From positions 19,530,001 through 19,594,000 of the forward strand of contig CM060733.1 in NCBI GenBank assembly GCA_030704615.1: 64,000 bases of DNA, in the 5' to 3' direction. Below the pieces are notes generated by a model, which did no database searches, had not been told where the DNA came from, and was given only the letters and a program-made list of their open reading frames with translations. This DNA is from Takakia lepidozioides (taxonomy: Eukaryota; Plantae; Bryophyta). This document shows positions 25,501 to 63,694 of the stretch, piece by piece. Both the position numbers and the translations under genes were made by a program. Within the stretch, counting starts at the first letter, position 1; each line of letters opens with the position of its first letter.

Positions 25501-26360
25501 GCCCTGCTTGTCCACCCTCACTATGTGAAGAGCCTTGCTCTTCCATTGCAGTGGTTTCTGGCTCAAACACTCCCATCTCTTTCTTTCTCGAGCATCAAGT
25601 ATGCCAAATCAAGAATTATTGAGCAATGATTGGGCCAGACACTATGAGGAGACTTGCAGCAGTACCCTGTAATCTTTTCATCTCCTCTACCAGTGCGTTG
25701 TAAATTAATGTCCGCCCATTCTACCTCTTCTCCTCTCAGGGGCTTGAGTATTTCCTCTGTGAAAGATCTGCTCAATACTGTTGGTTCTGTTTCATGGCAA
25801 ACAGAACGTTTCAATACCTGGCCTACCTCCCTTAGCCCTGGTACAACGCCTTGGTACAAGCATAACCTTGAGTTTTAAAGAAACTCCCTTCTTGGAATAA
25901 GTCCCCTATTTGCAGTCTTGCCCTGTGCTCCTCCACCATGCAACTGACCTGCTGGCAATCGAAACAATTGCTGTAGGTATAGGGGATTAAATTACTAATT
26001 CAACTCCCTTCACCGTTTATTGTGCTCCTGTCCTAGGCTCAAAGTTCTGCCAGAATTGTAACATGTAATGTCTATGGTGCAATGTCCAATCTTTGCTTTG
26101 CAATCCTTCCAATCGCAGCTCCTTCAGTAACTTTACCGCCTGTGGAGTAGCAATCGTTTGTTTCATGCAGGATTGTGGTGCTCTTCACCCTGATTTTCTT
26201 CCATTCCTCTCACTCTCTTCATTCTAGACCCACAGAAATGTTTTGGCTGTAACAATGAAGAATGTCTGCAGGGCACAAAGCATACGTATGGTTGCCACAA
26301 AAAGCTATGGGTAATTTCTTGTAAGCCTGCGGGGCTTGCAAGCATCGATTAAGAGAAAAG
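22513..26360 (-). mobile_element. Family A copy A3, 3' end (LTR 22513-23560, PPT, degenerate ORF3/ORF4 with a deletion of about 1 kb and an internal inversion)
   Basis: Reverse complement of A1 2355-7135. Lacks A1 4830-5831. Segment 24897-25140 is in the opposite orientation. Confidence 0.92.
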
Positions 26361-28897: not shown

Positions 28898-29397
28898 NNN
28901 NNNNNNNNNNNNNNNNNNNNNNNNNNNNNNNNNNNNNNNNNNNNNNNNNNNNNNNNNNNNNNNNNNNNNNNNNNNNNNNNNNNNNNNNNNNNNNNNNNNN
29001 NNNNNNNNNNNNNNNNNNNNNNNNNNNNNNNNNNNNNNNNNNNNNNNNNNNNNNNNNNNNNNNNNNNNNNNNNNNNNNNNNNNNNNNNNNNNNNNNNNNN
29101 NNNNNNNNNNNNNNNNNNNNNNNNNNNNNNNNNNNNNNNNNNNNNNNNNNNNNNNNNNNNNNNNNNNNNNNNNNNNNNNNNNNNNNNNNNNNNNNNNNNN
29201 NNNNNNNNNNNNNNNNNNNNNNNNNNNNNNNNNNNNNNNNNNNNNNNNNNNNNNNNNNNNNNNNNNNNNNNNNNNNNNNNNNNNNNNNNNNNNNNNNNNN
29301 NNNNNNNNNNNNNNNNNNNNNNNNNNNNNNNNNNNNNNNNNNNNNNNNNNNNNNNNNNNNNNNNNNNNNNNNNNNNNNNNNNNNNNNNNNNNNNNNN
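28898..29397. other. Assembly gap (500 N)
   Basis: Fixed-length run of N. Confidence 1.
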
Positions 29398-30029: not shown

Positions 30030-30480
30030 GTAGGCTGTCTGAGCTGTGATAGGCTAGTGTTGCACTGTGCGTAAGCTGTGATAGGCTGTGACACGCTGCG
30101 GTAGGTTGTGATAGGCTGTGTCACGCTGCGGGTGTGTTGGCTGTGTCACGTCGTGACGGGCTGTGATAGGCTGTGTCACGTCGTGACGGGCCTTCGGTAA
30201 GCTGTGTTGCGCCTTGCTGGCTGTGGTTGGCGTGTCACGTCGTGATGGGCCTGTGATAGGCTGTTGTCACGCCGTGATGGGCTGTGATAGGCTGTGTGCC
30301 CTTGCTGGCCTGTGGTTGGCTGTGTCACGTCGTGATGGGCTGTGATAGGCTGTGTCACGCCGTATGGGCTGTGTATACTGTGGTGCCCTTTGCTGGCTGT
30401 GGTTGGCTGTGTCACGTCGTGATGGGCTGTGATAGGCTGTGTCACGCGTGATGGGCCTGTGATAGGCTGTGTCACGTTGT
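30030..30480 (-). repeat. Tandem array (gtgacacagcctatcacagcccatcacgac-type units) downstream of integrase
   Basis: Repeated gctgtgataggctgtgtcacg on the + strand. Confidence 0.9.
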
Positions 30481-33400
30481 TTTGCCCACCCCGGTCATAT
30501 ATACTGGGCCTAGCGACAAGTGTTCCATACTCCGTTCGTAACACTGGTGCAGCCCGTGACTGCTCTTGCGGTTTCAACATGCAAATCATGTTGCGGGGTT
30601 TGTCATGGATACCACTGTACCCCTTCAAACTTATTTGCATTGACTCTTCCCAGCATTTCTTTGTTAATGGTTTGTAACATGGCTGTGTTGTTATCATACA
30701 TCTTTTGTATGACATAAGGTCCTTTCCATGGTGATTTAAGCTTAGAAGCTTGAATCTTTCCTTTCTTCTGCAACCATAAAACAAATCCCCCGTCTTAAAA
30801 GTCTTTAATTTGCCTTTATCAAACTGTTCCTTTCGCTTCATCTGAATTCTGGTCATATTATCAGCTGCATCAGCACGTACTTCTTCCACATGGTATAATT
30901 CATGTTTCCTGACCTTGATGGAGTCTTGCAATTCCATTCTTTTTCCCCACTCTGTTCTCATGGTAGGTAACAGGAATTCCACTGGAAGTAAGGCTTCCAT
31001 ACCATAAACTAATTGGAATGGTGTATACTTAGTGGTGACTTTATATGAAGTCCTGTATGACCACAAAGCTGTCAGCAGCTTTGTATCCCAATCCGTTCTG
31101 TTTGCATTGACTATCTTAGCCAAGATAGTACATAGTATTTTGTTGGTAGCCTCTGCCTGTCCATTACCCTGTGGGTAATATGTTGTACTCTTTCTATGCA
31201 CAATCATAAACTCTTTAGTCAATAACTCAATGGTCTCATTCATGAAGTGACTTCCTTGATCACTGATAAATTCTAAGGGACATCCAAATCGTGTAAGTAT
31301 GTTCTCGTACAGGAACCTTGCTGTGGACTTGGCTGTGTTGTCCCTCAAAGCTTTAGCTTCCACCCACTTTGTAGTATAATCAGTGGCTGTAATTATGTAC
31401 CTGTTTCGTGTATTCTTGGATGGTGGATTAATTGGTCCAACAAAGTCTAGTCCCCATTTCTGAAATGGTTCCGTAGGCATTGTAGGATGCAAGGCCATTC
31501 TTCCAGATCTCTGCAAAGGTCCTAGCCTCTGACATTCATCACACTTCTGACAATACTCATGTACATCTTTGAACAACGTAGGCCACCAGTATCCTGCGAG
31601 TAGTATCTTTCTACTGGTAGTCTCTTCTCCAAAATGACCTCCAGCCACTCCTTTATGAACTTCCTCCAAGACTTTATTTACTTCATGGTGGTACAAGCAT
31701 CGTTTTAGTACTCCATCAGGTCCTAACTTATACATTCTGCTTCCTACCATAGTATAAGGTAAAGCTCTGATAGCAATTCTTTTCCTTTGCTCCTTACCAT
31801 AACTAGGTGGGCACTGACCATGAGCAAGGTAGTATCTGATTGGCCATTGCCAATCTAACCATTCATCTGCACTTCCTTGCACCTCCATTACAAATAAACT
31901 CGCATCAGGTAACTGATCGTCCACTCCTGTGGCGGCCTCTCCTGTTGTTAGTCGTGACAAATGATCTGCCACAAGATGCAAACGGCCAGGCTTGTAAATA
32001 ACCTCGAACTCAAACTCATGCAAGATTATTAACCACCTCGCTATCCTTCCACTTATCAAAGGTTTGTTCACCAGATATATCAGAGCCTGGTGATCCACAT
32101 AAAACATAAACTTTCTTCCCAATAGGTAATGCCTGAATTTCTTCACTGCATAGATCATTGCCAATGCTTCTCTTTCCGTTGTGCTATAGTTCCTCTCAGC
32201 ACTGTTCATCAACCGGCTAGCATAGTACACAGGTGAATCTATATTCCCTGTAACATTCTGGGCTAACACCGCTCCCAACGCTTCTCCTGATGCATCGCAG
32301 TGAACATGAAATACTACATGCCAGTGAGGGTTAATCAGCACAGGTGTAGTTGTTACTGACAGTGTAAGTTCCTCAAACGCCTGTTGACATTCAGCTGTCC
32401 ATGCAAACACTGCATCTTTCTTCAGAAGCTTGCTCAATGGTGCTGCTATTTGTGCATACCTTTTGACAAATCTTCTGTAATAACTGGTTTGCCCAAGGAA
32501 TCTCCTTAAACTCTTAACATTCACTGGTGGTGGAGAGACTTTAATGGACTCTGTCTTCCTGGGATCCACAAGAAGTCCCTTCTTACACACTATGTGTCCC
32601 AGAAGCACCCCTGAGTTCACACAGAAAGTACACTTCTCTGGATTCAAGCCCAGACCTCTCATCCTGCATCTGGCCAGGCATAACTCCAATTTATGCAAGT
32701 GCTCATTCTTAGAGCTGTACACACTGAAATCATCCAAAAACACCTGCATGAAATCATCCAGATACTCTTGAAAAGATTCACTTATCACTCTCTGAAAGGT
32801 CGCTGGTGCATTACAAAGTCCAAAGGGCATGACTTTGTATGCATAAGCCCCCCAGTCTGTGATGAAAGCTGTTTTCCCTTGGTCTTCTTCTGCCACTTGC
32901 ACTTGATTATAACCACTGAAGCCATCCATGAATGAGTACATCTCATGGCCTGCCACAGTGTCTAATACTGCTTCTGTGAATGGCAAAGGGAAAGGATCTT
33001 TCTTCGTACAAGCATTCAGCTTCTTATAGTTCACACATACTCTTAGTTTGCCATTCTTCTTGGGAACTATAACAATGGGTGACAACCAAGTTGTATACTC
33101 TATTGGGTATATAAACTTAGCCTCAGCCAACTTCTTTATCTCTTCTCCAACCTTCTGTGCGTAGTTGGGATTCATTCTATACCTCGCCTGCTTGATTGGC
33201 ACTGACCCTGGTTCCAGTTCAATTTTATGCTGACAGACTTCAGGTGGTATCCCTTTTAGATCCTCATAGCTCCAAGCAAATACATCTCTGTATTTGATGA
33301 ACAAGCTTTTAGCTTCTTCGAAGAATTCCGGCTCCAAATCAGCTCCTACTTTCACCATCCTTGGTTCCTCCGGAGTTCCCACATTTACTTCTCTCACCTG

Positions 33401-36400
33401 CTCATCAGCTGTGATTGTCCAACCAGTCACCACTTCATCCTGTAAGCTCACAGTGGCTGGTTCTTCTAGGATTTCTATTTCTCCTTCTCTTTCTTCATAG
33501 AAATGTGATGGGTAAATGCTGGTTTCTTCTTCCGTTGGTGTTGCTGTCACTACACCACAGCAGATACCTCTCAAACAACTTAGGCTTTCCAGCCGCATCT
33601 CTGCAACTTGCTCCCACTCTGGGTGTGCAGCAAATAGGGTAGCTTCCTGCTCCTCATCCAGTCCTCCCCTCCAGTCATACTCTCTGACTCCTCGAGGTCT
33701 TCTTGTAGCAGGTAATCTACTAGATTTCTTTGTGGTAATTTGTATCTCGTGCATCCCATTATGCACAGTTAGTAACTGAGAATTCCAGTCATGGAATACC
33801 CTGGCCTGTTTCAGCCACGGACGTCCCAATAATAAGGAGTAAGCCTCCATGACTTCATCCATTTTTAATACAGTTACTGTGATCAGAAAGATCATTTTCT
33901 GTATCTGTATCTTAACTCCTCTTATTAATCCCAATGGCTGTACACTTCTTTGATCTGCCATTGTTACTGTAAATGGGGCTGGTTTCATGTTACTTAGACC
34001 AAGCTTCTTCCTTAATTGGTCTGTCATGATATTTACTCCAGAACCACCATCTATCAGTACATCAGTTAGTTCTGTGCTTCCAATTCTCAATTGGATTACT
34101 GGCATAGAATCATCAAAGTCCATGACTGGTTCTCGCCCTTCCGGCTTCACATTATAACTGGTCACCTTGCTGTTCAGGTCTGTGTTTCCTGTTTCTTGGG
34201 CAATTCGATTGATTGCCTGATACAGCCTGTGCCTACAATAAGGTGCCACAGCTAATAGCTGTCCAATGGTAATTTCTGCTTTGGTCTGACATATTACTTC
34301 AGCCAAAGTCTCTTCATTACTTTGCATGTCTGCATCTTCTTTTCTCCTTTCTTCCTCACTCTCCTCTTTTTCTCCATCCGAATCAGAGGAATCTGCCACA
34401 GGAATATCAGTACTCTTTTGCATTTCCCTTATAGTATCTGCCACTTCCTTGTGCAGTTCCTTCTCATCCTTCCAAGTCTCTTCATCTTCAGGCATATCAT
34501 TGCCACTTCCAGTCTCATCTTCTTCCTCTTCTACTGGAGGTATTAGTTTAGCTTTACTTCTTGTTACTATCATTGTACTTACTTCTGGTACAACACATGG
34601 CCTAACCATGTGAGCTGCCACCACTGGGCCCTCATTCACAGGAGCTCTCATCTCATTCTGGTGTCTTATCCAGAATGAACAGGCTGCCTTGCGATGTCCT
34701 GGCTGATTACAATAGTAACATAGCTCTTCACCATTGGGTCCTCGCCCTTGGTCTGGTCTTGGATTATTTCTATAATCCTGATTCCCGGGCTGGTAATTCC
34801 CCCTTGGATTACCCTGATAGTTGCCTCTGGAATTTCCTTGGTAATTCCCTCTTGAATTACCTCTTCCTTCCATGCCATTGTTATAACCACCAGACCTACC
34901 ATAGTGGTCCTGATCATTGCTTCTTCTTGGCTGGGGTTGCACCTGATGCACCCTCACTTGCCTAGGTTCTCTGGCAGCTGTCCTTCTGTTGTAGTAACAA
35001 TTCTCAGTAGAATGGTTATCCATTTTACAGATAGTACAGTGTTTCTCCTTCATGTGGCATTCTGTAGTGGTATGGCCTTCATTCTGGCACTTTGCACACC
35101 ATACACCCTTCCTCCAATGTGTTGCAGCCTCTGTGGCATACTTCTTCAAGATTTCTTCCAATCTTTTCTCATAGTTATCCCTCTTCAACTTTTCCTTTCT
35201 CTTACTCTTTCTTTTTAGTTCTTGCTCTTCTTCTTCATCTGACTCATCTTCAGAGTCCTCATCTTCCTTTTTCTCTCTCCTGAGCATTCCCAATTGCTCA
35301 ATTCTGTTCGCAGTTTCAAATGCCTCCTCCACTGTATTATGGGGTAACATATCCACTTTCTTCTGCAACTCTGGTCTTAGTCCACTCACAAACCAAGTCT
35401 TCTGTAAACCGGGTGCTGGTACTGCAGCCAGCTTTTTCATCATCAATTCCATCTTCTCCATATACTCTTCAACAGTTTCATGCTTCTTCTGCTTCAGCTG
35501 TTGTAAACTTCCATACACTTCATCCTCAGTTTTACTTGTCCTGAACCTATTTCGAAATGCTGTATTCAAGCCATTCCAGGTTAGGAAATGATTATCAGGG
35601 AATCTTGCATACCATTCACTTGCTTTCTTGATAAGTGAACAAGGAAACAGTCTCATCTTGGCATCATCGCCATTCTCATTGTTCACTATACACATGTGCT
35701 CAAATTGGCTAATGTGTACATCGGGATCCCCTTTTCCTGAATATATTGGAAAGGGTGGTTTTGCCCGTGTTGGTTGTAACGCCATCTGTGGCCCTACCTT
35801 CTGCCCACTGACAGGTGCTGGCACCCTTGCTGGTGCTGGTCCTTCTGGACCTGTTGTTTTTGTGGTGGATCTTCCACCAAGTGGTGGCCCTTGAGCACTC
35901 CCTGCTTCTGGCCCCACGATATTCACAGTATTCCCAGCTTCAGTTGCACTACTTCCCACACTCCCTGTCCCCCCAGAGCCAGATCCAGGCAGCCCGCCTG
36001 ATCCCCCTGAGCCGACACCTTCGTTGGCCTGTGATCCAAGTGCTCCACTTGATCCAGGTCCAACGGGTTGGGATGTCCTGGTTGTAGTCTCAACCTCAGC
36101 TGTTGGGTCTACTTCTTCATATTCTTCCTCTTCCAATTTCTTCTCTCTGTTTTCATCATTCAAGTTCTGCCCTTGGGTTTCTTCTTCACTCATGTAACTC
36201 AACTGTAATGGTGTTGGAGAGTCTGAACTCTCCGTTGGCTCTGCCACATCCTCATCTCCTTCTTCATCTTCTGCTTCAGAAACTGGAGTTCCTGCTTTTG
36301 GTGTTCCATGCCAACTTTTATCAAAGATTTCTGTCAAATCTTTTATCCAAGGATGTACCTCAGATCTTTCACCTCGTGATTGATCTTCTTCCTGTACCAA

Positions 36401-36616
36401 TTCCCTTAATCTTTCTTGCAAAGAAACAGAAGGAGTGGCATCCAACTCTAGTTCTTCCGGTATAGGTGATGCACTTTTTGATCTTGATGGTGTGAGAGGT
36501 CCAGATGATTCCCCTATGTCTATTCCTCTCTCCCAAAGATATGGATAATTAGCTTTCAGATAGCTTTCCCTTTTTAATGAATATCTTTGTCGTCTAGCTT
36601 CTCTTTCATCACTCAT
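30176..36616 (-). CDS. Gag-Pol polyprotein (long acidic/Gly-rich N-terminus, capsid, three CCHC knuckles, PR, RT, RNase H, INT; no chromodomain). The last ~200 aa are frameshift read-through into the repeat array
   Basis: CAKCQNEGHTTTEC, CTICKMDNHSTENC, CYYCNQPGHRKAAC; LIDGGSGVNI; FMDGFSGYNQ..VFLDDF; HCDASG; GHFG..CDEC; WGLDFVGP. Copy A1 shows the true frame (VLWLQ..PWKGPY) after about 30785. Confidence 0.96.
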   Translation of the reverse strand: MSDEREARRQRYSLKRESYLKANYPYLWERGIDIGESSGPLTPSRSKSASPIPEELELDATPSVSLQERLRELVQEEDQSRGERSEVHPWIKDLTEIFDKSWHGTPKAGTPVSEAEDEEGDEDVAEPTESSDSPTPLQLSYMSEEETQGQNLNDENREKKLEEEEYEEVDPTAEVETTTRTSQPVGPGSSGALGSQANEGVGSGGSGGLPGSGSGGTGSVGSSATEAGNTVNIVGPEAGSAQGPPLGGRSTTKTTGPEGPAPARVPAPVSGQKVGPQMALQPTRAKPPFPIYSGKGDPDVHISQFEHMCIVNNENGDDAKMRLFPCSLIKKASEWYARFPDNHFLTWNGLNTAFRNRFRTSKTEDEVYGSLQQLKQKKHETVEEYMEKMELMMKKLAAVPAPGLQKTWFVSGLRPELQKKVDMLPHNTVEEAFETANRIEQLGMLRREKKEDEDSEDESDEEEEQELKRKSKRKEKLKRDNYEKRLEEILKKYATEAATHWRKGVWCAKCQNEGHTTTECHMKEKHCTICKMDNHSTENCYYNRRTAAREPRQVRVHQVQPQPRRSNDQDHYGRSGGYNNGMEGRGNSRGNYQGNSRGNYQGNPRGNYQPGNQDYRNNPRPDQGRGPNGEELCYYCNQPGHRKAACSFWIRHQNEMRAPVNEGPVVAAHMVRPCVVPEVSTMIVTRSKAKLIPPVEEEEDETGSGNDMPEDEETWKDEKELHKEVADTIREMQKSTDIPVADSSDSDGEKEESEEERRKEDADMQSNEETLAEVICQTKAEITIGQLLAVAPYCRHRLYQAINRIAQETGNTDLNSKVTSYNVKPEGREPVMDFDDSMPVIQLRIGSTELTDVLIDGGSGVNIMTDQLRKKLGLSNMKPAPFTVTMADQRSVQPLGLIRGVKIQIQKMIFLITVTVLKMDEVMEAYSLLLGRPWLKQARVFHDWNSQLLTVHNGMHEIQITTKKSSRLPATRRPRGVREYDWRGGLDEEQEATLFAAHPEWEQVAEMRLESLSCLRGICCGVVTATPTEEETSIYPSHFYEEREGEIEILEEPATVSLQDEVVTGWTITADEQVREVNVGTPEEPRMVKVGADLEPEFFEEAKSLFIKYRDVFAWSYEDLKGIPPEVCQHKIELEPGSVPIKQARYRMNPNYAQKVGEEIKKLAEAKFIYPIEYTTWLSPIVIVPKKNGKLRVCVNYKKLNACTKKDPFPLPFTEAVLDTVAGHEMYSFMDGFSGYNQVQVAEEDQGKTAFITDWGAYAYKVMPFGLCNAPATFQRVISESFQEYLDDFMQVFLDDFSVYSSKNEHLHKLELCLARCRMRGLGLNPEKCTFCVNSGVLLGHIVCKKGLLVDPRKTESIKVSPPPVNVKSLRRFLGQTSYYRRFVKRYAQIAAPLSKLLKKDAVFAWTAECQQAFEELTLSVTTTPVLINPHWHVVFHVHCDASGEALGAVLAQNVTGNIDSPVYYASRLMNSAERNYSTTEREALAMIYAVKKFRHYLLGRKFMFYVDHQALIYLVNKPLISGRIARWLIILHEFEFEVIYKPGRLHLVADHLSRLTTGEAATGVDDQLPDASLFVMEVQGSADEWLDWQWPIRYYLAHGQCPPSYGKEQRKRIAIRALPYTMVGSRMYKLGPDGVLKRCLYHHEVNKVLEEVHKGVAGGHFGEETTSRKILLAGYWWPTLFKDVHEYCQKCDECQRLGPLQRSGRMALHPTMPTEPFQKWGLDFVGPINPPSKNTRNRYIITATDYTTKWVEAKALRDNTAKSTARFLYENILTRFGCPLEFISDQGSHFMNETIELLTKEFMIVHRKSTTYYPQGNGQAEATNKILCTILAKIVNANRTDWDTKLLTALWSYRTSYKVTTKYTPFQLVYGMEALLPVEFLLPTMRTEWGKRMELQDSIKVRKHELYHVEEVRADAADNMTRIQMKRKEQFDKGKLKTFKTGDLFYGCRRKERFKLLSLNHHGKDLMSYKRCMITTQPCYKPLTKKCWEESMQISLKGYSGIHDKPRNMICMLKPQEQSRAAPVLRTEYGTLVARPSIYDRGGQNNVTQPITGPSRVTQPITAHHDVTQPTTASKGHHSIHSPYGVTQPITAHHDVTQPTTGQQGHTAYHSPSRRDNSLSQAHHDVTRQPQPARRNTAYRRPVTT

Positions 36617-36638
36617 GTCCCATGTCTTTCATTTCTTT

Positions 36639-44250: not shown

Positions 44251-47200
44251 TCAACCATGGATTGGCCTGCAACATGCCATCTTAGCGATCTTCCATTGCT
44301 GCCAGAGCTTCATTGATGTTTCCAATGCATCCGCAGACAAGGTGAAGACTGCATCCTTGCCTTTGACTCGATATGTCGCTGGAGGCATAACAAATTTGAT
44401 AGCCCTCACCAAATGCGAATACAGAAATGCCAAAGGCTGGTCAGATAGGAACTTGTAAGCCTTATCTCTTCTTCCACACAACTGGTAATATCTCCCTGCA
44501 ACCACATGCTCGCAAGGGTCAAAAGTACTTCCCCACCCATCTGTGAATGTCTCCATAACAACGTGAACCGACCTTTCACAACAGAGCAAATAGAAGTCCA
44601 CCCCTTCTGAGTTTCCAGCTTCAACATTGCAGGCAAAATTGTCCCCTGCATCCAAGCAGGAGGCCAAGTCCTCCCCATCTCCCCCAAACTCTTGTTCTTC
44701 ATCCCCTTCTTCTTCAATCTGCCTCCAGACAGCAGTTGTATTTGTAGGTTGCAGGGTTTGCAACTTCCATTTTTGTGCATGAGCAATACTGATGCAGTTG
44801 TCCCAATCAAGATCCAAACAATGCGGACAAAAACATGCTAAGTCTCGAACCATAAGTTTGGTTGGGTCTGACTTGTTCCTCCCAAGAATGGAATGTAAAG
44901 ACCGAGTTCGAGGTACGGTCTTGCAATCCCACTCTTGTGTACGGTCAACATCTTCTGTACCAACAAGCCAAAAATGTCTTTTCACTGCTGTTCTAATCTT
45001 AGAGTACGAAGAAGGAGGTCGGGTGGACAGGTTCTTGCGCAAAAAAACTACTGCCTCAGCAGCATTTTGCAGCTTCACACCATTTGAGTTTAACTGCTCT
45101 GCTCGTAAAGCCCTCTTGATCACAGCACCAGCCCCATCGTGCTCACCTTTCCCGTGCCCTGATCCAAAAAAGTTCCACCACATTGTGCAACCCCCTGTGA
45201 TGTGGGGGTACCTACTAACAAAATACCAAGGACGAGCACCTTTAAACTGAGCAGCACAACCGTCACTCCATACCCAATGCGATTCAGGTCTGAACCCTGC
45301 TTCAGCAAGGTAATTCCAATGAAACCGAAAGCAATGTTGTACGAACAGCGTGTCATGCTTGTTGTCATCAGAAATATAAAAGTGCATTTCTTTCAAAACC
45401 TTGGAATCGGGATCATTCACATCAGGGTGTGGATTCCACCGGTAGGTAATGTGCACCAATATAGTGATCTGGAAACTGTGCCAGTGCATCTCTTGCACTT
45501 CATTCTGAACCGTAAAAGTGTAGTTTTCAGCAAAGTCAACAACAGACAATATTGTATTCTCTGGCAAAGATTTCAAACTGGCTTTAAACTGAGCATCTTG
45601 CCATCGGGCTACAAAGTTATGACGAACAAAAGCCTGTAGCTTGGGTTTGAAGTACGACAAGAATTCAACAGAGGAAGTCGTTTGGTATTGGAGTTTCAAT
45701 CTCATTCTAGGGGCTCCATCTTTCTCCCCAACATTCTCTTTTGCATAGCATCTCCACTGCACTGTCAAATCACAACCATTTGCCTCCACGGGACAAATAG
45801 ATAACTTACTTGAGCCACACCTCAAGCACTCTCCCATGAGACAGTCTCGCCGATGCCATTCATCCAATTCCCCTTTGGGACAAACAATTTCTTGCCAAAG
45901 CCAAGTCACTCCTTTGTAGGGGTGCTTGTTCTCTTGACAACCAGCTTCACCATCTAATACTGGTCCACGTCGACAAATATTACAGTCACAAGTACATGAT
46001 GATGGAGAGTGGACACCCCTCTTGGCAGTCCGCATGTTGTTGAACCCATCCTTCAACTTCCGCATGATATTTGCAGCAACAAACATTACGATCCTTCAGG
46101 CGTTTGACAAAGAATGGCCTCAACAACTCAAACAATCGTTGACCCACTTTGACATTGGGATGGGCTGATTTGAAGCGAAGAAAGAAAGCAGTCTGCATTG
46201 CCACCACAACATGCACAAAGAGAATCCCATTTAGTGCATGCACTAAGAATACCTACTACTAGACCTAGACCAGTCCTAGACCTAGTCTTAGTCATAGTCC
46301 TTTCTCATCACATGTCAAATTGTACAAGTACTAATCAGTCCTAGTAGTCCTAGACCTAGTCCTTCTTAGTCACATATGAAGTAGTACATGTACTAATCAG
46401 TCCGAGTGTGAGTCCTTTCTAGTCACATATCAAGGAATGCATGTACTAACCAGTCCTAGTCCTAGTCCTAGTCATATACCAATGAATGCATGTCCTAATC
46501 AGTCCTAGTCCTACTTCTTTCTAGTCACATATCAAGGAATGCATGTCCAAATCGGTCCTAGTCCTAGTCATTGTCCTTTTCTAGTCACATTTCAAGGAGT
46601 GCATGTACTAATGGAGTACATGTACATCGACTTCTAGTCCCTCCAAATCAAATTACATGGATGCTATTTTGTCCTATCTAGTCATAATATAAGGAGTGCA
46701 TGCTAGTGAGTCGTACTTCTAGTCCATCCCAGGCCTGTTTACAATGAGTACCAGTCCATGAACAAGAGGGACATCTTCAAGACACTCCAATTCAGGACAT
46801 GAGCTGGACATAGTGTCCACAATTGAGTACAGTAATCTCAATCCACTGGTAGGTTTACAGGTGACGATGTACCTTGTCTAGGGAAAATGTACGAGGCAAC
46901 CCAAACAACACAATGACAGTTGACAAACTCCAACGTAGTCCAATACAGTTATGTACAGTAGTAAGTGTAGAAGGATTGTAAAGTACTGAGAGCCCACACA
47001 AACACTGTAAAGAGAGGGTTCGCTTACCTGAGTCTCAAGAAGATAGTGAGCAGGTTGTGTATCATAGACTTTCCTCGATACGCGCTGCCTCACGACATCT
47101 TTCTTGTTGGGTGACACTCGTGTCTCATTTACCCACCAAGCCAAAACGATCGCTCGGGTCGCATCTGGTACATGATCAGACCTTTTCTTTCTCCCACCCA

Positions 47201-48056
47201 AAGCCCACAAACCCTCACCTTCTGAATCAATGACTCTTCGTCGTACAATTGCACGACTAATATTGCTATGATGAATATTAAGAATACGAGCCGTTGCCCT
47301 CACAGCAGTGGTCTGGGTTCCACTAACAGACGCTGTTAAGAATGAGCGTTTACTCGCAAGCTTATCTAAAGACTGCACACCCTTAACAAGTTGCATGGAG
47401 CTCTGCTGGTTCTTCAACAGATCTGCATGCGCCTTGGCCTCCTTAGGCGGCAAGTAATAGGCAGGTAAGCTGAGTTTAATGAGATGGTGACCCAAAAGTA
47501 ACTCCATTACCTCTGTTTGTGAATGAAGTGTTGGGCATTCCCTCAATTGCTTGTAACATAAGTCGGCCATTTTCAAAGCTATTCTCCTCTTGTCTCGTTC
47601 TCCAAACCCCACCCTGGCATCTTCCACAGAACCTTGCCCAGACGTTGTAGTAGCCGCATTAATCTCTGCCTCTTTTTGGGCTTGAAGTCTCTCCCTATAC
47701 ATTCTTTTCTGGTCAGCGGCCCGGTCCTCCATCCATTTCGTGAACTGGAACTTTGCCCGGTCCTCCTCCCATTCATCCCCGGCCAAAGCCTCTCTCATTC
47801 TCATCTCCATATGGTGCTAGAATCTAAGGAACCCCTCATTCCCATGTCGGACATACAAAAGATTCAAACGCATTATGTCATTGTCCTTCAAATAATCCAG
47901 CACTACTTGCTTCACCACCTTCGCGGCCTCTGCGCTTGGATAGTCTTTTTTGTTGACCTGACTATCCCGTTCATGTGCATGTTTACGCTTTCTACCTTTA
48001 CGCCCACTTCCCGAGGAACCCCCTGACACTGCGTTCGAAGCAACGTTTCTGGACAT
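44251..48056 (-). pseudogene. Sola2-like DDD transposase, two exons (48056-47028 and 46192-about 44280), with one in-frame stop and frameshifts
   Basis: DFAENY, WSDGCAAQFK and GHGKGEHDG triad; VCCCKYH and C..CLMGECLRCG Cys clusters. A phase-0 GT-AG intron at 47027-46193 joins ETQ|TAFFLRFK. TAG at 47817-47819 is in frame. Superfamily assignment is from remembered motifs. Confidence 0.75.
46255..46750. repeat. CTAGTC(C)-rich tandem repeats inside the transposase intron
   Basis: Repeated agtcctagtc..ctagtcacat..gcatgtactaatc units. Confidence 0.8.
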
Positions 48057-51874: not shown

Positions 51875-52603
51875 ACACGGTAATGCCCATCGTGTCGGGC
51901 ATTCCAGGATTTGCGGGCCTTCCCCTCTGGCTACCGCCCTCGGCGTCAGGCCCTTAAATCCGAGAATGCCCTCCACTACAGGGCATTACCCTATACGAAA
52001 CCCTAAAAAATACTGACTATTCTGCAGTAAGAGAAAGTCTAAAGCAATAGATTTCAGGCTCCAGCACTCCCATGCGCTTCATAGATTTGACCGGGGTCCA
52101 AAATGAAATGGTGCTTTATAACGTCCGCGGAAAGCTCATAGAGCTTATGGGACAAAATGGAAGAAAACATGAGAGAGGAAACAAAAGAAAGAAACAATCA
52201 GGCAGGTCGATGCCCTGGCCGGTGATAAGATTGCTTGCAAATATAAGGGAGTTTGGATCATGAATAACAGTTTGTACATACCTACACTGCAAAGCCTGAA
52301 CCTGTGTGGATCTTATGTACAAATTAAAATTTGACCTTCAAAGAAATAAAGTAATCACTTGCACCCTTCATGAGGGTACAGCTCATTATAGGTACAGGCA
52401 TCTCAGTTGCCAATGTTTGATATGGCAGAGAGGGGGATTGCAGCCCCATGATCAATCTATTAAACTTAAAACTGCTCAGCCTTTCAATGATCCTTAAAAT
52501 TGAATATGGACAAGTGCTTGATCAGCATCAATGTTTTGTAGAACTAAAAATCTCATAGCTTTAATTTAGATTGGCTTTCTGGCAACCTCGGATCCAGGGT
52601 TCA

Positions 52604-53224
52604 TTACAGCAGGTCTTTCCTAAAGCGGGACAGCACGGGGTAGATCTGCTCAAATGCCTTATAGATGTCCTTCTTATCCTTCGCACCAGCGATCACAATC
52701 TTGCCAGATGTAAAAGCGAGCACGACTAGCTTGGGCTCTTTCATTCTGTAGATCAATCCTGGAAACAATTCAGGTTCATAGGAGGCATCAGGCGGCTTTG
52801 GTCATACACCATCGTCTCCAATTTGATAGGGAACTTGACATCACACATGATGCAACCATATTCTGAATCTTGAAGTCCTTGAGGTGAACAGTGAAACCAA
52901 GCTTCTATACGATGCGCACGAACTTGGCGGCTGCCAGTCTCGCCAACGCCCTCACTCTTGCCACCCGTGCACACCATCTTCCCCGATGAAAATAGGAGGG
53001 CAGCTGTCTTGGGCTCTTTGATCCGCATCACCACAGCTTGAAACCGCTTGGGATTGTATTCGGCATTCCTAGCTTGCATCGCTATCTTCTTCAGGTCCGG
53101 CTTACAACCCATGCTCACTGTTACGACAACATTCTGAACCGTGGGGATCAGACCGGAGGGATGCACGGCGAAACTGCTCATTGCTACCTTCACCCATGAT
53201 CATCCGGTATTCAGAATCTGCCAT
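52604..53224 (-). pseudogene. TBP: TATA-binding-protein paralogue, frameshifted intronless copy
   Basis: Near-identical to 58387-59010, with an 8-bp deletion near 53170 and several further indels. Confidence 0.9.
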
Positions 53225-53724
53225 GTACGATCAGCTCTTTGAGAACTCTTGTATTTCCCTCAATGGACCAAATACGAGCACCAACAATAGCTCTCGTCTT
53301 TCCTAAGTAGACCAAACAACAGAATACCAGAGCCTTGCTCGATCTCGTCTCTGTGGGATATGTGCTACGGTATGTGCGCTCTAGTGTTGTGGCCGGATGT
53401 TTGATCCTGCCACTGGTTGATCAGCGGATTGAGGCCACTTGGCTACAGCCGGGAAAAAGTAAAAACATTAGCTAATTTTGGTATTTTTAGTCTGCATTTT
53501 AAGAGTGGCAGGTATCCAGATTTGGATGCCACGCGGCGCCCGGCTGTTCTCTGCCATTGCGCGAAATCGCTCTTCTCTCTTCTCATTTACGTCTGGCCCT
53601 GCCCTCTTCTTCTTTGTTCTGGAGCCTCTTCTTATTCTTGTTCTCTCTCATCCTCTCTGTCGACCTTGCCCTTATTCTCTTGCCAGTTCTCTCATCATTC
53701 CTGCCTTATATTTTTCTCGTGAAT

Positions 53725-56887: not shown

Positions 56888-58386
56888 ACTGTCCCCAAGA
56901 GGAAAAAACAAAAACTCGTAGAGCTAGATATATTGACACAAAGAAATAATTCAAACTATTCTCTTCACTCCTTCAAACTTGACAATACTATCATGTTGTA
57001 AATACCTTAATCTGGCATTAGGAAAAGGATGAACTCCCTGAAATTTATCCCCAAGGACACTATCTACCACGGCCCTTCAGGACATATAGGTAGGAAAGAA
57101 CGCCAAGTTGCTAGGTCAAAACCAGCCCGCAATTCTTATTGCGATCGGGCTGAGGGGAACAGAACGTTATGTGAGAAGACGCGCATGGTTACATTGTTCA
57201 CAAAAGAGATATGACCCTCCGACAAATCCATTGCAGACTACCGTGGGGCCGCGCCGTCTCCAGGCACGTCAGCCCTGGAAAAGTTAAATGAGGTAGCTGA
57301 AACACATCGTACAAACCAAAAACAGACCCTCCGCGTAGTTAAGGGTGCGACAGTTGCTTTGAACAATGATAAATTTCTTAGGGTGACAGGGAAAGAATGG
57401 AGAGGGGGCTCTTTTTGATGAACAGATTACAGGGTAATTGCTAATCCCCGCAGTGGAAATGAGCTAGCTCTGAAAATTTGTAGGACTCATGAATTGAATT
57501 TCCAACATTTTTAAGCTGGTGTAAAACAGGTGTAAAACTGTAATGATATCTAAAACTGTATGATGCACATATTGTATAGCGGAGGAGAGATTCTCCTGAC
57601 ACTGTGGAGTCCTGTCCTTCCTCTTCATTCTCATGTTCGAAACTATTTTGAAGAGCTTTCCACAAGATTCGGCCTTCAGGTGACAGTTTCAACTTTCTTT
57701 TAAGCCCTAAGTAAAACATGTTGACTATTCTGCAGTAAAAAAAAGATTGCATGCCACTGTTTGTGGCGAATTTTGATGTGCTTGCAAAATCTTATTGAGA
57801 CATGAAATTTGTTTATACTTTAAGTACTTCACATGTGTACACATACAGCCCTGGACTATGATATCCATTTGAACACGGTAGAGAAGGGGGTCTAAAGCAA
57901 CAGATTTCAGGCTCCAGCACTCCCATGCACCTTGAGCTTCATAGATTTGACGGGGTCCGAAGGAAACAATCAGGCAGGTCGATGCCCTGGCCCCGGCTGA
58001 AAAGATTGCTTGCAAATATAAGGGAGATTGAATCATGAATAACTGTTTGTACATACCTCCACTGAAAAGTCTGAACCTGTGTGGATCTTATGTACAAATC
58101 AAAATTTGACCTTCAAAGAAATAAAGTTATCACCTGTACCAATTCAGGGTACAGCTCATTATAGGTACATGCATCTCCGTTGCCAATGTTTGCTATGGCA
58201 GAGGGGGTGATTTCAGCCCCATGATCCATCTATTAAACTTAAAACTGTTCAGCCTTTCAATGATCCTTAAAATTGAATATGGGCCACAAGTGCTTGATCA
58301 GCCTTGATTAATGTTTTGTGTAACTAAAGATCTCATAACTTTAATTTAGATACTTGGCTTTCTGGCAAACTCGGCACCAGGGTTCA

Positions 58387-59010
58387 TTACAGCGGGTCTT
58401 TCCTAAAGCGGGACAGCACGGGGTAGATCTGCTCGAAGGCCTTATAGATGTCCCTCCTATCCTTCGCACCAGCGATCACAATCTTGCCAGATGTAAAAAC
58501 GAGCAACACTAGCTTGGGCTCTTCCATTCTGTAGATCAATCCTGGAAACAATTCAGGCTCGTAGGAGGCATGGCGGCTTTGGTCATACACCATCGTCTCC
58601 AATTTGATAGGGAACTTGACATCACATGAGCCAACCATATTCTGAATCTTGAAGTCCTTGAGGTGGACAGTGAAGCCAAGCTTCTGTACGATGCGCACGA
58701 ACTTGGCGGCTGCCAGTCTCGCCAACGCCTCACTCTTGCCACCCGTGCACACCATCTTCCCCGATGAAAATAGGAGGGCAGTTGTCTTGGGCTCTTTGAT
58801 CCGCATCACCACAGCTTGAAACCGCTTGGGATTGTATTCGGCATTCCTAGCTTGCATCGCTATCTTCTTCAGGTCCAGCTTACAACCCATGCTCACTGTT
58901 ACGACAACATTCTGAACCGTGGGGATCAGACCGGAGGGATGCACGGCGAGATCTACAAACTGCTCATTGCTACCTTCACCCACGATCATCCGGTATTCAG
59001 AATCTGCCAT
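58387..59010 (-). CDS. TBP: Intronless, divergent TATA-binding protein (207 aa)
   Basis: Both TBP repeats are present: [32 protein letters not shown] and [33 protein letters not shown]. First ATG at 59010. Confidence 0.95.
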
Positions 59011-59663
59011 GTACGATCTGCTCTTTGAGAACTCCTGTTTTTCCCTCACTGGACCAAACACGAGCACCAATTGATAATTACTCTCGTCTTTCCCTCAGTA
59101 GACCTAGCACCAAAGCCTTTCTCACAACAATTTCACTCTCCAAGCGTTTCTAAACAACAGTTCGATCTCGCCTTACTCTTAGTAGACCAAACACCAGCAG
59201 AGCCTCGCTCCACAGCAATCGAAAGAGGCATATGTTTGATCAACGGATTGAGGCCGCTTGTGAACAGCCGGGCAAAAGTAAAAACATTAGTCACTTTTAC
59301 TATTTTTAGGTTGCCACTTGTGAACAGCCGGGCAAAAGTAAGAACATTTGTTACTTTTGGTATTTTTGGGTTGCATCCTATTGTTTTCCATTTATTAGTG
59401 GATAATATTACCATAATTGTCATGCTTATGTCACAGAATCTTCGGACCGTTAAGAGGGTGGACCCCTAAGCTGCCGAATGCAAGAATGCCACGTGAAGAG
59501 ATGCCACAGGTCGGACCATGGTGATGTGAGTGCAGCGGCTCTCTCTATCTGCAACTCCCGCGCTCTCTCGCTCTGTCTGTATCCTCTCCCTCTCGCGTTC
59601 GTTTTGAGGTTTGGGATTGCGGTCTAAGAATTCGGTTGCCACTCATCCTTCCTGCTCGGCACG
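59011..59663. promoter_or_regulatory. Shared divergent TBP/TPI intergenic region
   Basis: 653 bp between the start codons; G-box gccacgtg near 59488; CT-rich TPI leader; a tandem duplication of about 58 bp at 59253-59370. Confidence 0.55.
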
Positions 59664-62097
59664 ATGACGCGTAAATTTTTCGTCGGAGGAAACTGGAAAT
59701 GTGTAAGTATTGTTCTCTCTGTGTCTGTTGATTGTTTCATGTCGGTCGAGTATAATCCCGTGGAAAAAATGGAAGGGAAGGATAAGGGATTCTCACAACA
59801 AGAACGTCAGATCTCTCTACATTTTAATGCTGAAATCTTCAGCATTGCTGTTGACAGTGATTTGGCGGAAATTTGAAACTCTTTTCGCGGATATTTTCCG
59901 TCAGTAGAATTTGCTTCATTGCTGGACGGTGTCTACATTTTCTGGTTTGACAGTCTTTGGTCAGACATATCTCTATGTTTTGTTCGGTTGATTTTCTTCA
60001 CACCACTGGGAAATTCTGCACAGAGCGGAACAATTCTTCTTCAGCAGAGATGATCGTTTAGAGCGTTTGACCGGTCTTCTTCTTTCATGAAAGAGGCATT
60101 TCTGAGGGACTGCCGCTCTCGCACCGTGCGGTTTTGTAAAATCCAGCGATCATATTGTGACTCTGGGGAGTACTGTAGCTGGAGACAGGATTGAGCTTGT
60201 GAGAGAAGTGCAATGAGCCTGCAATTAGCTTGACTGCGCCAGCCTGCATGGCATGGTCCTCACATGCCAGTTTCCATGAACCAACTCACAGGACAGTGCC
60301 TCAACTATGTTTCCAAAGCTAGTGTAATGTGCAATAGTTATCGGGCATGTCTTATCTAACTCCCGACATCATCTCAGCCGACGTTTTCGGGGATGTGTAC
60401 AACGCGTGAGAGTGAAATTGACCTTTCATATCAAGTCTATATGCAAAGCATATGCATATGGCCTGGCAACTGCGCAAATGTCTGTAGCAGACTGCGCTGT
60501 GCGTGTTCCCCGAGTGCTTAGGCAATTTGTACACCTGGGGCACCTTGAAGCTATGCTTGGTGAGCAAGGTATTCCAAGGTGGAGTGGCATCAGTCAGATC
60601 TTAGTTGAACATCTTTTGTCTTTATGCCGTTTGAGTATCGCTCAGTCAAGCGTTGGAAGCCTTCAAAGTCTTGCAGCATATAATGCCAGTGTTTTGAGTT
60701 CTGAATTGCACTGACTGTCAAGGATCTCATATAAATGTTAGGCTATTCACTTTTCAGGTACGTAGCGCTCAAATTGGTTAGAACTGCTGACTTCTCATCT
60801 TCTCTGTTCATTGCGCAGAAGCAATGAGTTCTGAACTTGTCTCTTTTGAAATAGGAAAATGTGTATTTTCTCTCATTCAATGTAAATCTGAAATGTAGTT
60901 TGACCCTATGAAGCTTAAATTCCCTAAGGAGTCATGTTATGAGGTTCTTGACTGTAGAATGGAACTGTGGAGGAAGTGAAGAAGATTGTCTGTATGCTAA
61001 ACCAAGGGGAAGTACCATGCCCTAATCACATAGGTGAGCTACTATTTATCTTGCTGTATATCTCTAAACTATTGTCACAAGATAATTTCTGCAAAAGTGG
61101 CACATACATGGATTACTTTCCTGCATCTTATCAGTTCTGCGAAATGCCTCTTCTGTACATCCGGCCACACCTCTTACACCGTACACACAATCCTTTTCTT
61201 TCTGAGAAGCAGCTATTTGGCCGCAGAGACGGTAATTGCACCTCCAGCTGTGTTTCTCCAAACTGTCAAGTGTACGCTGCGCCCAGATTTCCATGTTGCT
61301 GCACAGAACTGTTGGATAAAGAAGGGTGGTGCTTTCACTGGAGAAATTAGGTTCTGACTGAAAACCCCTACTACTACCTGTTACCAGTTTCACATACAAG
61401 ATAGACATGGAGCCCTGCTTTTGGGCTCTTTAGTGGCAGTGGCTAGACGGACATGGTGTAGTAAGATTCTCTTTTATGGTTGGCCGGTGCAGTATGAAAA
61501 CCAGTATATCGCTCATGGCTGTCTGCATGATCAGCTAGTGGTGGTGGTTGTCCAACTTATTGCTACTGTCTTCCGGATAGTGGTAGCTCAATACTTTGAT
61601 GGAGATATGAGTGACTTGGAGCCCCTTTACACATAGTTTAGTTTTCTATGCTTGTCACATATATATTCACCCCACTCCTTTTTCTCAGTTGTGCCATCAG
61701 TGCCCACTACGAACTAGTCTTTGGGTATTATCTGAGGTGGTTTTTGCCAAAGCTCATTGACATTTTTTAATAAGAAACAGGAGTATGTTAAGTTGGATAG
61801 TCAGTATATATGGCTCTTCTACCTAGAGAGAGAGATGGCAATAGTAGTACTAAGTTTTGCTTATTATTGCAAATGGGGACTGTTGTAGTGCAGAGATGTT
61901 GGTCAACATGGGCATTCCATGGGTCATTCTGGGCCACTCCGAAAGGCGGACTCTTTGCGGGGAAACCAATGAGGTACAGTGTTGTCTGCTTTTCTTACCT
62001 GATTCTTGTGTGGCAAATGACATGCACTGTAAACTTCTCAAATATTGTGGGACACATTGTTCTGGAGCACCCTACCCAACTCCATTGAAACCCCTTC

Positions 62098-62128
<31 letters not shown>

Positions 62129-63694
62129 TCTTCCCTGTTTTTGTTTTTCTTTCCATTTTGTCCCATAAGCTCTATGAGCTTTCCGCGGACGTTATAAAGC
62201 ACCATTTCATTTCGTTTCATTTCCCTGAACCTGTTTCCAGTCTGTGACATGGGGGAGGATATCATGGATGACCTCAAGGGTCTACCCACTCTTGGCACCA
62301 GACTGAAATTTAAACTCAGGGCAGGAAGCCTACCTTTGAACATTAAACAGAAGCAGAGAGGAAAGGGAGAGTGCAATTGCCCGTTGTGTGGGCAACCCGA
62401 AGACAATATTCATTTTCTGATTCACTGTCCGGGGTACTCTCACCAGAGAGAAGCTCTCCTCCAATCTATCAAGAGAATTGTGCCTGTACCTCTGTTTACC
62501 AACTCTGAAAGTCTCGAGGCTGAGCCAAAAGCCCAGGCCCTTCTGAGGCCTAGTTTCTGGGCAAATCACACACAGCAGATTGATGCTTGTGTGAAGGGAT
62601 TTCTAGAGGATATCTGGAAAACCCGAATCAATTCTATGTGACATTTTGGGCTAACACAGCCCCCAATGCTTATCCTGAGGCATCACAGTGTACATGAAAT
62701 ACCACATGTCAGTGAGGGTTAATCAGTACAGGTGTAGTTGTTACTGTCAACAGGCTGCAGAAAAATAAAAAGACCACATATTCACACTACAGAACTCTTG
62801 CATGAAATCATCCAAATACTCATGGAAAGATTCACTTATCACTCTCTGGAAAGTTGCTGGTGCATTACAAAGTCCAAAAAGGCATGACTTTGTATGCATA
62901 AGCACCTCAGTCTGTGATGAAAGTTGTCTTTCCATGATCTTCTTCAACTACTTGTACTTGGTTATACCCACTGAAGTCATCCATGAATGAGTACATCTCA
63001 TGGCCTGCCACAGTGTCCAGTACAGCTTCTGTGAATAACAAAGGAAATGGATCTTTCTTTGTATAAAGGTAAGTCTTACTACCAATGTCAGCCCCTGACA
63101 GAGGTAGGTTCTGTCCCTTTGGTTTCCGCTCAAACTGGGCGCGGGGTCAATGGCCACAAGGCTACGGCAAACGTCTTATGAGTACATTCTCTTTCTGTCT
63201 TTCTAGCTGCTATGGTAGGTGTGGAATCAAATGCCCATCTTGATTTCAAGAACAGATGAATTTGATATAAGCAGAGGGACCAGTTGACTTCACTAGACGA
63301 GACGAAAGTACCCCAAGATAGTAAGATGGACCTGTCAAACAGGGCAGATCACATGTGGAATTTTTATGGTAATGAATATCTCAAGCCCAGACATTCCAGG
63401 CAAAGGAGTGGAGGATCACAGCCTAATTTGAAGAACGCACTATTAAAGGCCCTTCCAATGCTGGGAATAATGGATGAAGATAGCAAGGATAAACCAATTC
63501 AATCAACTTCATTAGTTCCTTAGGTCTCCATCTGATATGGACTACGTAGTGGTGCTTGCAGATTGTTGCAGAAAAGACAGAGTATGCATTGGGTCAGGGA
63601 CTGAAAGTGTGCCTCTGTGTGGGGGAGACACTGAGGGAGCGCGAGGCTAATGAAACTGCTGCTGTTGTGGCCAGGCAGGCCCAAGCTGTGGCAG
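59664..63694 (+). CDS. TPI: Cytosolic triosephosphate isomerase, exons 1-5 (59664-59702, 60958-61033, 61227-61350, 61889-61973, 63562-63694); continues beyond the window
   Basis: [13 protein letters not shown]|[34 protein letters not shown]. All introns are GT-AG; exon sizes 39/76/124/85/133 keep the frame and match the plant cTPI layout. Confidence 0.95.
62230..63205 (+). mobile_element. 5'-truncated LINE (C-terminal CCHC finger and 3' UTR) in TPI intron 4
   Basis: [31 protein letters not shown]; ends in a short tct-rich tail; interrupted at 62637-63063. Confidence 0.8.
62637..63063 (-). repeat. Copy of the Gypsy RT/RH fragment 19306-19730 inserted into the intronic LINE
   Basis: Only about 7 differences in about 425 bp, and it shares the private deletion-plus-filler junction. 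Confidence 0.93.

What the first reader, a model, noticed from the sequence alone, without database searches (positions are those of the whole stretch)
58387..59010. Divergent intronless TBP paralogue lacking one TATA-contacting threonine: a candidate plant TBP-related factor
Seen: an intact ORF with no introns. The four intercalating Phe, both Asn, the first-repeat Thr (VCTG) and the TFIIB-binding YEPE stirrup are retained. The second-repeat V(I/L)TG is VIAG in both copies, and helix-2 ARKYAR is AAKFVR. By hand it is only about 70% identical to the Arabidopsis core as I recall it, low for plant TBP, yet many substitutions are conservative. Known: plant TBP genes normally have several introns; two Asn and two Thr make the minor-groove hydrogen bonds; helix 2 is a cofactor surface; TRFs are known mainly from animals. 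Inference: a retrogene evolving altered promoter or cofactor specificity.
Basis: partly seen in the sequence, partly recalled or inferred. Interest (0 to 1): 0.75.

Follow-up and report, generated by a model that had tools for sequence, protein, structure and literature searches.

The report
Intronless extra TBP with remodelled surfaces
This plant carries, besides its ordinary TATA-binding protein (TBP) genes, an old intronless extra copy whose DNA-binding face is almost unchanged but whose partner-binding surfaces have been rewritten, so it likely acts as a specialised transcription-start factor like the animal TBP-related factors, although its expression is untested.

Summary
Window 58387-59010 (-) is an intact, intronless 207-aa TBP, 71-72% identical to Arabidopsis TBP, with second-repeat Thr changed to Ala. 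A frameshifted copy lies 5.8 kb away. It is not the only TBP: RNA contigs of the same species label carry canonical TBP transcripts about 80% identical in DNA. Against them synonymous sites are near saturation (dS about 1.2, dN about 0.2 over 32 codons), so the gene has long been under purifying selection. The larger changes are on cofactor surfaces: helix-2 Arg (human R235) to Ala, seen in 0 of 441 homologues, and 10 of 13 residues around the NC2-contact site (yeast F182). No orthologue was found, but unrelated orphan divergent TBPs exist in a fern (one with the same Thr-to-Ala) and in strawberry. Best reading: an old TBP retro-paralogue that likely still binds TATA-like DNA and TFIIB but is regulated differently. 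Expression and altered specificity are untested. New variant of a known kind; interest 0.42.

The parts
58387..59010 (-). Intact intronless TBP paralogue, 207 aa
   Evidence: AlphaFold model pLDDT 91.8 matches Arabidopsis TBP at rmsd 0.8-1.3 A for most entries
52604..53224 (-). Broken tandem copy of the paralogue (four frameshifting indels, stop at codon 109)
   Evidence: 19 substitutions in 616 aligned coding bases
57959..59112 (-). Core of the duplicated segment (gene plus flanks), 91.7% identical to 52187-53321; smaller matches at 57434-57642 and 59233-59309
   Evidence: blastn
59011..59663 (.). 653-bp interval between the divergent start codons of the TBP paralogue and TPI; likely shared promoter; holds a 62-bp tandem repeat (59253-59374) whose unit is also kept upstream of the broken copy; no TATAWAW match
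   Evidence: the promoter role is inferred
59664..63694 (+). Cytosolic-type triosephosphate isomerase gene, head to head with the paralogue; five exons seen (59664-59702, 60958-61033, 61227-61350, 61889-61973, 63562-63694), running past the window end
   Evidence: exon 3-4 GT..AG splice in an RNA contig with 0 mismatches

Best explanation
This is an old, intact, intronless duplicate of the plant's own TBP gene, kept under purifying selection, which likely arose as a retrocopy and is predicted to still bind TATA-like DNA and TFIIB while being regulated through different partners. Shown: intact ORF, normal predicted fold, separate canonical TBP transcripts, dN/dS well below 1, a canonical DNA face apart from Thr180Ala, an intact TFIIB stirrup, and changes concentrated in residues 136-148 and in helix 2. 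Inferred mechanism: a cDNA copy inserted head to head with the TPI gene and was switched on by that promoter. The protein nucleates a Pol II preinitiation complex through the kept Phe/Asn saddle and the two stirrup Glu. It probably binds more weakly or briefly (one minor-groove Thr lost; Ala100-equivalent changed to Gln beside an intercalating Phe). It probably responds differently to NC2 (Phe182-equivalent to His) and to the factors that share the helix-2 basic patch, namely TFIIA, Mot1, TAF1 and Brf1 (Arg235-equivalent to Ala). By analogy with animal TRFs and plant pBRP2 it is most likely used in a restricted, perhaps reproductive, cell type; that step is analogy only. A later tandem duplication gave a second copy that has since died.
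For: (1) Canonical paralogues exist. RNA contigs of both same-species-label runs align at about 80% and read canonical residues at the differing codons I decoded; two synonymously different forms appear in X1. (2) Long selection. Over 32 codons there are 14.5 synonymous changes on 24 sites and 12.5 nonsynonymous on 72 sites, dN/dS 0.16, Fisher p 0.0003. In a neutral simulation giving 73% amino-acid identity, 9.85% of 2000 ORFs stayed open and 0.05% also kept 13 key residues. (3) Recent selection. Of 11 nonsynonymous or stop codon differences between the tandem copies, 6 are derived in the broken copy, 1 in the intact copy and 4 cannot be polarised; all 4 indels fall in the broken copy (polarised by hand). 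(4) DNA face: 15 of 16 residues in the list of PMC12529657 Table 1 are canonical; both stirrup Glu are kept. (5) Surfaces: 10 of 13 positions in 136-148 differ from all nine canonical-type plant TBPs used as the reference set, against 41 of 175 overall (p 3e-5 before correcting for choice of segment). His147 maps to yeast F182, whose V mutant is NC2-defective. Ala102 maps to human R235, an N-lobe signature whose R235E mutant abolishes basal transcription; Ala is in 0 of 441 homologues. (6) Origin at home: DNA identity to the own canonical transcripts is 80% and 81% in two segments, against maxima of 74% and 75% among 80 metagenomic TBP loci. Mungbean TBP has seven introns and the neighbouring TPI keeps its introns.
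Against: No transcript of the paralogue was demonstrated. The dN/dS rests on 32 codons from segments that passed an 80% alignment threshold and averages over the whole history, so recent silencing is not excluded. The tandem-copy contrast in codons 109-207 is only borderline (pN 0.039, pS 0.11, p 0.052), and codons 1-108 have no synonymous difference, which suggests gene conversion. The DNA face is not significantly more conserved than the rest (1 of 16, p 0.12) and helix 2 is not significantly enriched for change (6 of 17, p 0.24). Segment 136-148 is fairly variable among TBPs anyway. Four other helix-2 basic residues (98, 103, 106, 110) stay basic. In a third segment 8 of 80 foreign loci reach or beat the own transcript's 80%. 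Trees do not place the protein. No poly-A remnant was found. No orthologue turned up in four searches, so conservation across species is not shown.
Confidence: 0.5

Rival explanations
1. A relaxed, redundant spare TBP: expressed weakly from the TPI promoter, selected only to keep folding and basic activity, with surface changes that are tolerated drift and no new specificity.
For: Many changes are conservative, and helix-2 enrichment is not significant. Similar long-branch orphan TBPs occur independently in Adiantum, Fragaria, Neltuma, Dioscorea and Acer at 57-79% identity to the Marchantia core, as expected if spare copies drift. No orthologue was found.
Against: Persistence to dS above 1 beside canonical transcripts of at least two forms is long for pure redundancy. 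Several changes are at nearly invariant sites (12 positions with consensus at least 85% and the query residue at most 3%) while the DNA face and stirrup stay almost untouched.
Confidence: 0.28
2. A formerly functional paralogue that has recently been silenced; the ORF is intact only because too little time has passed.
For: The twin copy is already dead, and the locus sits among transposon debris.
Against: All four indels and the stop are in one copy, and the intact copy has 1 clearly derived amino-acid change against 6. The adjacent TPI is transcribed and spliced in X1, so the shared interval is active there.
Confidence: 0.13
3. A horizontally acquired TBP from an alga or other eukaryote, intronless because it came as cDNA or from an intron-poor donor.
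For: It is about equally distant (65-72%) from plant, algal and protist TBPs. Under LG+G4 it pairs with Micromonas (68/83, not starred), with which it shares 8 of 42 diagnostic residues. Placement with four fungi is not rejected (p-AU 0.09). GC3 is 0.65 against 0.50 in the TPI exons.
Against: Under the mixture model it falls on the streptophyte side of an 87/82 branch. The highest identity is to plant-type sequences. Its DNA is closer to the species' own transcripts than to any of 80 foreign loci in two of three segments. No candidate donor above 72% exists in the searches.
Confidence: 0.07
4. It is the organism's only, ordinary TBP, and it merely evolves fast.
For: Complete fold and key residues; no genome was available to locate another TBP gene.
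Against: Both runs of the same species label hold canonical TBP transcripts, and X1 is tied to this genome by a mismatch-free spliced TPI contig. Contamination of both runs would be needed.
Confidence: 0.02

Closest known systems
Canonical land-plant TBP (Arabidopsis TBP1/TBP2; PDB 1QN3-1QNE, 1VOL)
   Same: Fold, short N-terminus, four Phe, two Asn, Pro191-equivalent, Thr82, stirrup Glu; 72% core identity.
   Different: No coding introns (mungbean has seven); Thr173 to Ala, Ala58 to Gln, helix-2 Arg95 to Ala, helix H1' region rewritten. Canonical plant TBPs are 89-95% identical to the Marchantia core; this one is 71%.
Animal TBP-related factors: TRF1 (dipterans), TRF2/TBPL1, TRF3/TBPL2
   Same: Extra TBP-fold paralogue beside canonical TBP. 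Like TRF1 and TRF3, which can bind TATA (PMC10005294, passage), it keeps the intercalating Phe.
   Different: Independent origin. TRF2 has lost an intercalating Phe and does not bind TATA; this protein has all four. Restricted expression and dedicated targets, known for TRFs (PMC3044737, passages), are untested here.
Unstudied divergent plant TBPs in databases: Adiantum capillus-veneris KAI5055695.1 (GOP47_0029216) and GOP47_0027424; Fragaria vesca XP_004305147.1
   Same: Long-branch plant TBP paralogues beside a canonical gene. KAI5055695.1 has the same second-repeat Thr-to-Ala. The Ala100- and Gly174-equivalent sites are changed in all three, as here.
   Different: Only 54-57% identical to this protein. 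The Adiantum pair forms its own clade (99/96), although a clade with the query is not rejected (p-AU 0.21). The Adiantum proteins change 4-6 of 16 DNA-face residues against 1 here, and all three keep the helix-2 Arg.
Plant TFIIB variant pBRP2 (Brassicaceae)
   Same: Lineage-restricted duplicate of a general transcription factor in plants; a model for a reproductive role (PMC3044737, abstract and passages).
   Different: A B-factor, not a TBP; expression and phenotype are known there and unknown here.

Membership tests
TBP family (PF00352) | Two TBP repeats forming the saddle fold | tested here: met
   Pfam, 2 stretches, E 1.9e-67; model TM 0.97 to Arabidopsis TBP
TBP family (PF00352) | Four intercalating Phe, two Asn, Pro on the concave face | tested here: met
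   15 of 16 listed DNA-face residues canonical
TBP family (PF00352) | Two stirrup Glu for TFIIB/Brf (C.L3.2, C.L3.4) | tested here: met
   Glu151, Glu153 = human E284, E286
Canonical land-plant TBP orthologue | About 90% or more core identity to other land-plant TBPs | tested here: not met
   71% to the Marchantia core, against 89-95% for canonical ones
Canonical land-plant TBP orthologue | Intron-containing coding region | tested here: not met
   Single-exon ORF; seven introns in mungbean
Canonical land-plant TBP orthologue | Both minor-groove Thr and the full N-lobe basic signature | tested here: not met
   Ala180 and Ala102
TBP-related factor (functional sense) | Coexists with a canonical TBP in the same organism | tested here: met
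   Canonical transcripts in runs X1 and X2; the canonical gene itself was not located
TBP-related factor (functional sense) | Maintained by purifying selection | tested here: met
   dN/dS 0.16 over 32 codons; neutral simulation
TBP-related factor (functional sense) | Expressed, typically in restricted cell types | tested here: inconclusive
   Only two small contig-level RNA runs of unknown tissue were available
TBP-related factor (functional sense) | Distinct promoter set or complexes | not testable with these tools
   Needs DAP/ChIP-seq and pull-downs
Animal TRF2/TBPL1 clade | Loss of an intercalating Phe; metazoan orthology | tested here: not met
   All four Phe kept; highest identity is to plant-type TBPs
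Retrogene | Loss of the parent's introns | tested here: inconclusive
   No introns here, but the parent gene in this genome was not seen; introns inferred from another plant
Retrogene | Poly-A remnant and target-site duplication | tested here: inconclusive
   No A-run of 6 or more within about 1 kb downstream of the intact copy; expected to be eroded at dS above 1; target-site duplication not searched

The most novel reading that the evidence does not exclude
Land plants have repeatedly and independently evolved their own TBP-related factors. This gene, the Adiantum pair and the strawberry paralogue are separate origins that changed the same sites (the Ala100- and Gly174-equivalents in all, the second-repeat Thr in two). 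This one is a TATA/TFIIB-competent, NC2-resistant TBP that runs a dedicated, probably reproductive, transcription programme from a promoter shared with a TPI gene.
Probability: 0.2. Interest if true: 0.7.

Novelty: new variant of a known kind. Interest (0 to 1): 0.42.

Why it matters
The papers I read describe TBP-related factors in animals, and plant variants of the basal machinery on the TFIIB side. A selected, divergent plant TBP with an intact DNA face and rewritten cofactor surfaces would extend promoter-machinery specialisation to plants. It is also a natural mutant at sites studied in yeast and human TBP (F182, R235, T215). The value is limited because it is so far a single-lineage orphan with no expression evidence, and comparable orphan paralogues already sit unstudied in public proteomes.

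Tried and rejected
Whole genome: none held, so the parent gene could not be located. Sequencing runs: no RNA holder listed. In the two same-label runs no contig of 95% identity or more was listed on the paralogue; contigs show presence only, so this is not used for or against expression, nor are depths used to rank genes. The exact sequence is not in the collection. A search with the divergent Adiantum protein found no bridging family (120 of 3149). Three trees (39, 33 and 21 hand-picked rows out of 347-442 proteins) left the query unplaced; none of four constrained placements was rejected. A recalled DUO1-type motif occurs once in the intergenic region, but the window count (37) is within chance (mean 31): rejected as evidence. 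The sigma-70 promoter scan is irrelevant to a plant. Ten literature searches listed no paper on a divergent plant TBP paralogue; the library lacks most subscription papers. One supplement of PMC7221094 (a scanned PDF) and the supplements of the bioRxiv preprint were not seen; they may hold residue-level contact or mutation lists. Earlier-finding look-ups by sequence, by words, for TBP in this genome and near this place were blank.

Full report
Observation. The ORF at 58387-59010 (-) encodes 207 aa without interruption. It has two TBP repeats and aligns to Arabidopsis TBP1 with only a 2-residue gap in the N-terminal tail; identity is 71% by BLASTP and 72% over residues 30-204. The second copy (52604-53224, -) lies in a duplicated segment 91.7% identical to 57959-59112. 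It carries an 8-bp deletion, insertions of 1, 2 and 2 bp and a stop at codon 109.

Context. The window is transposon-rich plant DNA. No genome is held, and I did not determine the lineage. A cytosolic-type TPI gene starts 653 bp away on the opposite strand and keeps its introns. An RNA contig of run X1 spans its exon 3-4 junction with no mismatch, which ties X1 to this genome and shows that the neighbour is transcribed there.

Is it the only TBP? No. Contigs of both runs with the same species label align to the ORF at about 80% (record pieces with 20 of 100, 23 of 120, 5 of 35, 16 of 81 and 7 of 44 other letters). The listed differences read as canonical residues, for example Glu-Glu 163-164 as Lys-Gln and Thr173 as Val. 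Two overlapping X1 records differ at synonymous sites around codons 65-74, so there are probably two canonical genes or alleles (read by hand).

Selection. Over the 32 codons where differences are fully listed there are 14.5 synonymous changes on 24.2 sites and 12.5 nonsynonymous on 71.8 (dS about 1.2, dN about 0.20, ratio 0.16, p 0.0003). These segments were picked by an 80% alignment threshold, so the numbers are rough. Because canonical plant TBPs barely change, nearly all amino-acid change is on the paralogue's branch (inference): its constraint is relaxed relative to canonical TBP but far from neutral. Neutral mutation to 73% identity left 9.85% of 2000 simulated ORFs open, and 0.05% open with 13 key residues intact, without even modelling indels. 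Between the tandem copies the coding region differs at 19 of 616 bases against 32 of 414 in the 3' flank. Of 11 nonsynonymous or stop codon differences, I polarise 6 to the broken copy (45, 77, 109, 169, 171, 185), 1 to the intact copy (163) and 4 not at all. Against this, codons 1-108 have no synonymous difference where about 6 are expected (p 0.003), which suggests gene conversion, and the contrast in codons 109-207 is borderline (p 0.052).

Where the protein changed. Offsets are query+35 = yeast, query+133 = human and query-7 = Arabidopsis; they reproduce E284, E286 and F305 of PMC7221094. Of 16 DNA-facing residues listed in PMC12529657 Table 1 (passages) only T215 is changed. Of nine further or overlapping Arabidopsis contacts named in a duckweed preprint (10.1101/2025.01.26.634961, one passage), Arg65 is Lys and Thr173 is Ala. 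The TFIIB stirrup (149-157) has no change. Thr180Ala is rare (2 of 434, one spurious). Ala65Gln (4 of 440) sits beside intercalating Phe64; from recall, not from a call, yeast A100P alters TATA binding. On helix 2, Arg102Ala is in 0 of 441 homologues. It equals human R235, named among the N-lobe signature residues of the patch shared by TFIIA, Mot1, Brf1/2 and TAF1, where R235E abolishes basal transcription (PMC7221094, parts 2-5 of 11 read). That mutant is a charge reversal, and residues 98, 103, 106 and 110 stay basic. Tyr104Phe lies at yeast Y139, whose Ala allele is cited among TFIIA-binding mutants (PMC13626347, passage), but Phe is common there (50 of 440). The most changed segment is 136-148: 10 of 13 positions, against 41 of 175 overall. 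It includes His at yeast F182, whose V mutant is described as NC2-defective (PMC1896006, passages), and Thr at G174 (Spt3 contact, recalled). Neither DNA-face conservation (p 0.12) nor helix-2 enrichment (p 0.24) is significant on its own.

Relatives. No orthologue above 72% appeared. The search did expose other divergent plant TBPs: Adiantum KAI5055695.1 and GOP47_0027424 (59% and 67% to the Marchantia core), Fragaria KAL6133112.1, in the cluster of XP_004305147.1 (57%), and milder cases in Neltuma, Dioscorea and Acer (76-79%). KAI5055695.1 has the same Thr-to-Ala and has also lost the first Thr. Position 139 is changed in 7 of these and similar 8 paralogues examined. The Adiantum pair groups apart from the query (99/96), but a joint clade is not rejected (p-AU 0.21). 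The query is a long branch (0.5-1.0 against medians of 0.09-0.17) with no starred placement. Horizontal origin is therefore not excluded by trees. DNA identity favours the host lineage in two of three segments (80% and 81% against maxima of 74% and 75% of 80 loci; in the third, 8 of 80 match or exceed 80%), with the caveats that the segments were defined by the own transcripts and that no other land-plant coding sequence was available.

Mechanism. The most likely history is retroposition of a full-length TBP cDNA beside the TPI promoter, long survival under selection, and a recent tandem duplication whose product died. Retroposition is inferred from the absence of introns where mungbean TBP has seven (PMC11394781, passage); no poly-A trace remains. 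The protein is predicted to bend TATA-like DNA and recruit TFIIB, with weaker or shorter binding and altered control by NC2 and helix-2 ligands. Mouse work shows that even closely similar TBP cores can differ strongly in binding dynamics and function (PMC12093143, passages). Restricted, reproductive use is an analogy to TRFs and pBRP2 (PMC3044737, passages) and is untested. I put this reading at 0.5, relaxed redundancy at 0.28, recent silencing at 0.13, horizontal origin at 0.07 and sole TBP at 0.02.

Known or new. It is a TBP-family member but fails the tests for a canonical plant orthologue and for the TRF2 clade. It meets two of four functional criteria for a TBP-related factor; the other two are open. 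The passages I read treat TRFs as animal (PMC10005294; PMC7221094; PMC13134418; PMC7408454), and ten searches listed nothing on divergent plant TBPs, within a library that lacks most subscription papers. PMC2275077 (two passages) added only that K138T/Y139A impairs HIS4 expression. Verdict: a real, selected, lineage-restricted TBP variant; new variant of a known kind; interest 0.42.

Noticed in passing
window 59664-63694 (+): The head-to-head TPI has several Cys in the exons seen and may be a minor isoform; whether the organism has another cytosolic TPI was not tested.
   Followed up: partly
window 30176-36628 (-): Uninterrupted 2150-aa gypsy-type gag-pol frame, a candidate recent LTR retrotransposon; decayed relatives at 1-7100 and 19400-26400.
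   Followed up: no
window 44251-46095 (-) and 46878-47816 (-): Two long ORFs (614 and 312 aa) that look like a DNA-transposon pair (from recall); no Pfam hit.
   Followed up: partly
window 62100-63200: High-copy repeat in TPI intron 4, starting at a TC microsatellite, with a Cys/His-rich ORF (62249-62641) like a LINE 3' end (from recall); covered by many RNA contigs in both runs. A 68-bp piece of it sits inverted in the 3' flank of the broken TBP copy (52101-52167).
   Followed up: partly
window codons 1-108 of both TBP copies (58687-59010; about 52900-53224): No synonymous difference between the copies in the 5' half against 7 in the 3' half: likely gene conversion.
   Followed up: partly
P0255, P0364 (Adiantum capillus-veneris); P0229 cluster (Fragaria); P0209 (unnamed ENA): Strongly divergent plant-type TBPs. 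The Adiantum pair changes 4-6 DNA-face residues and is a better candidate for altered DNA specificity than this gene. The Fragaria cluster has members on Logan contigs of about 1.1 kb.
   Followed up: partly
window 28898-29397: Assembly gap of 500 N.
   Followed up: no
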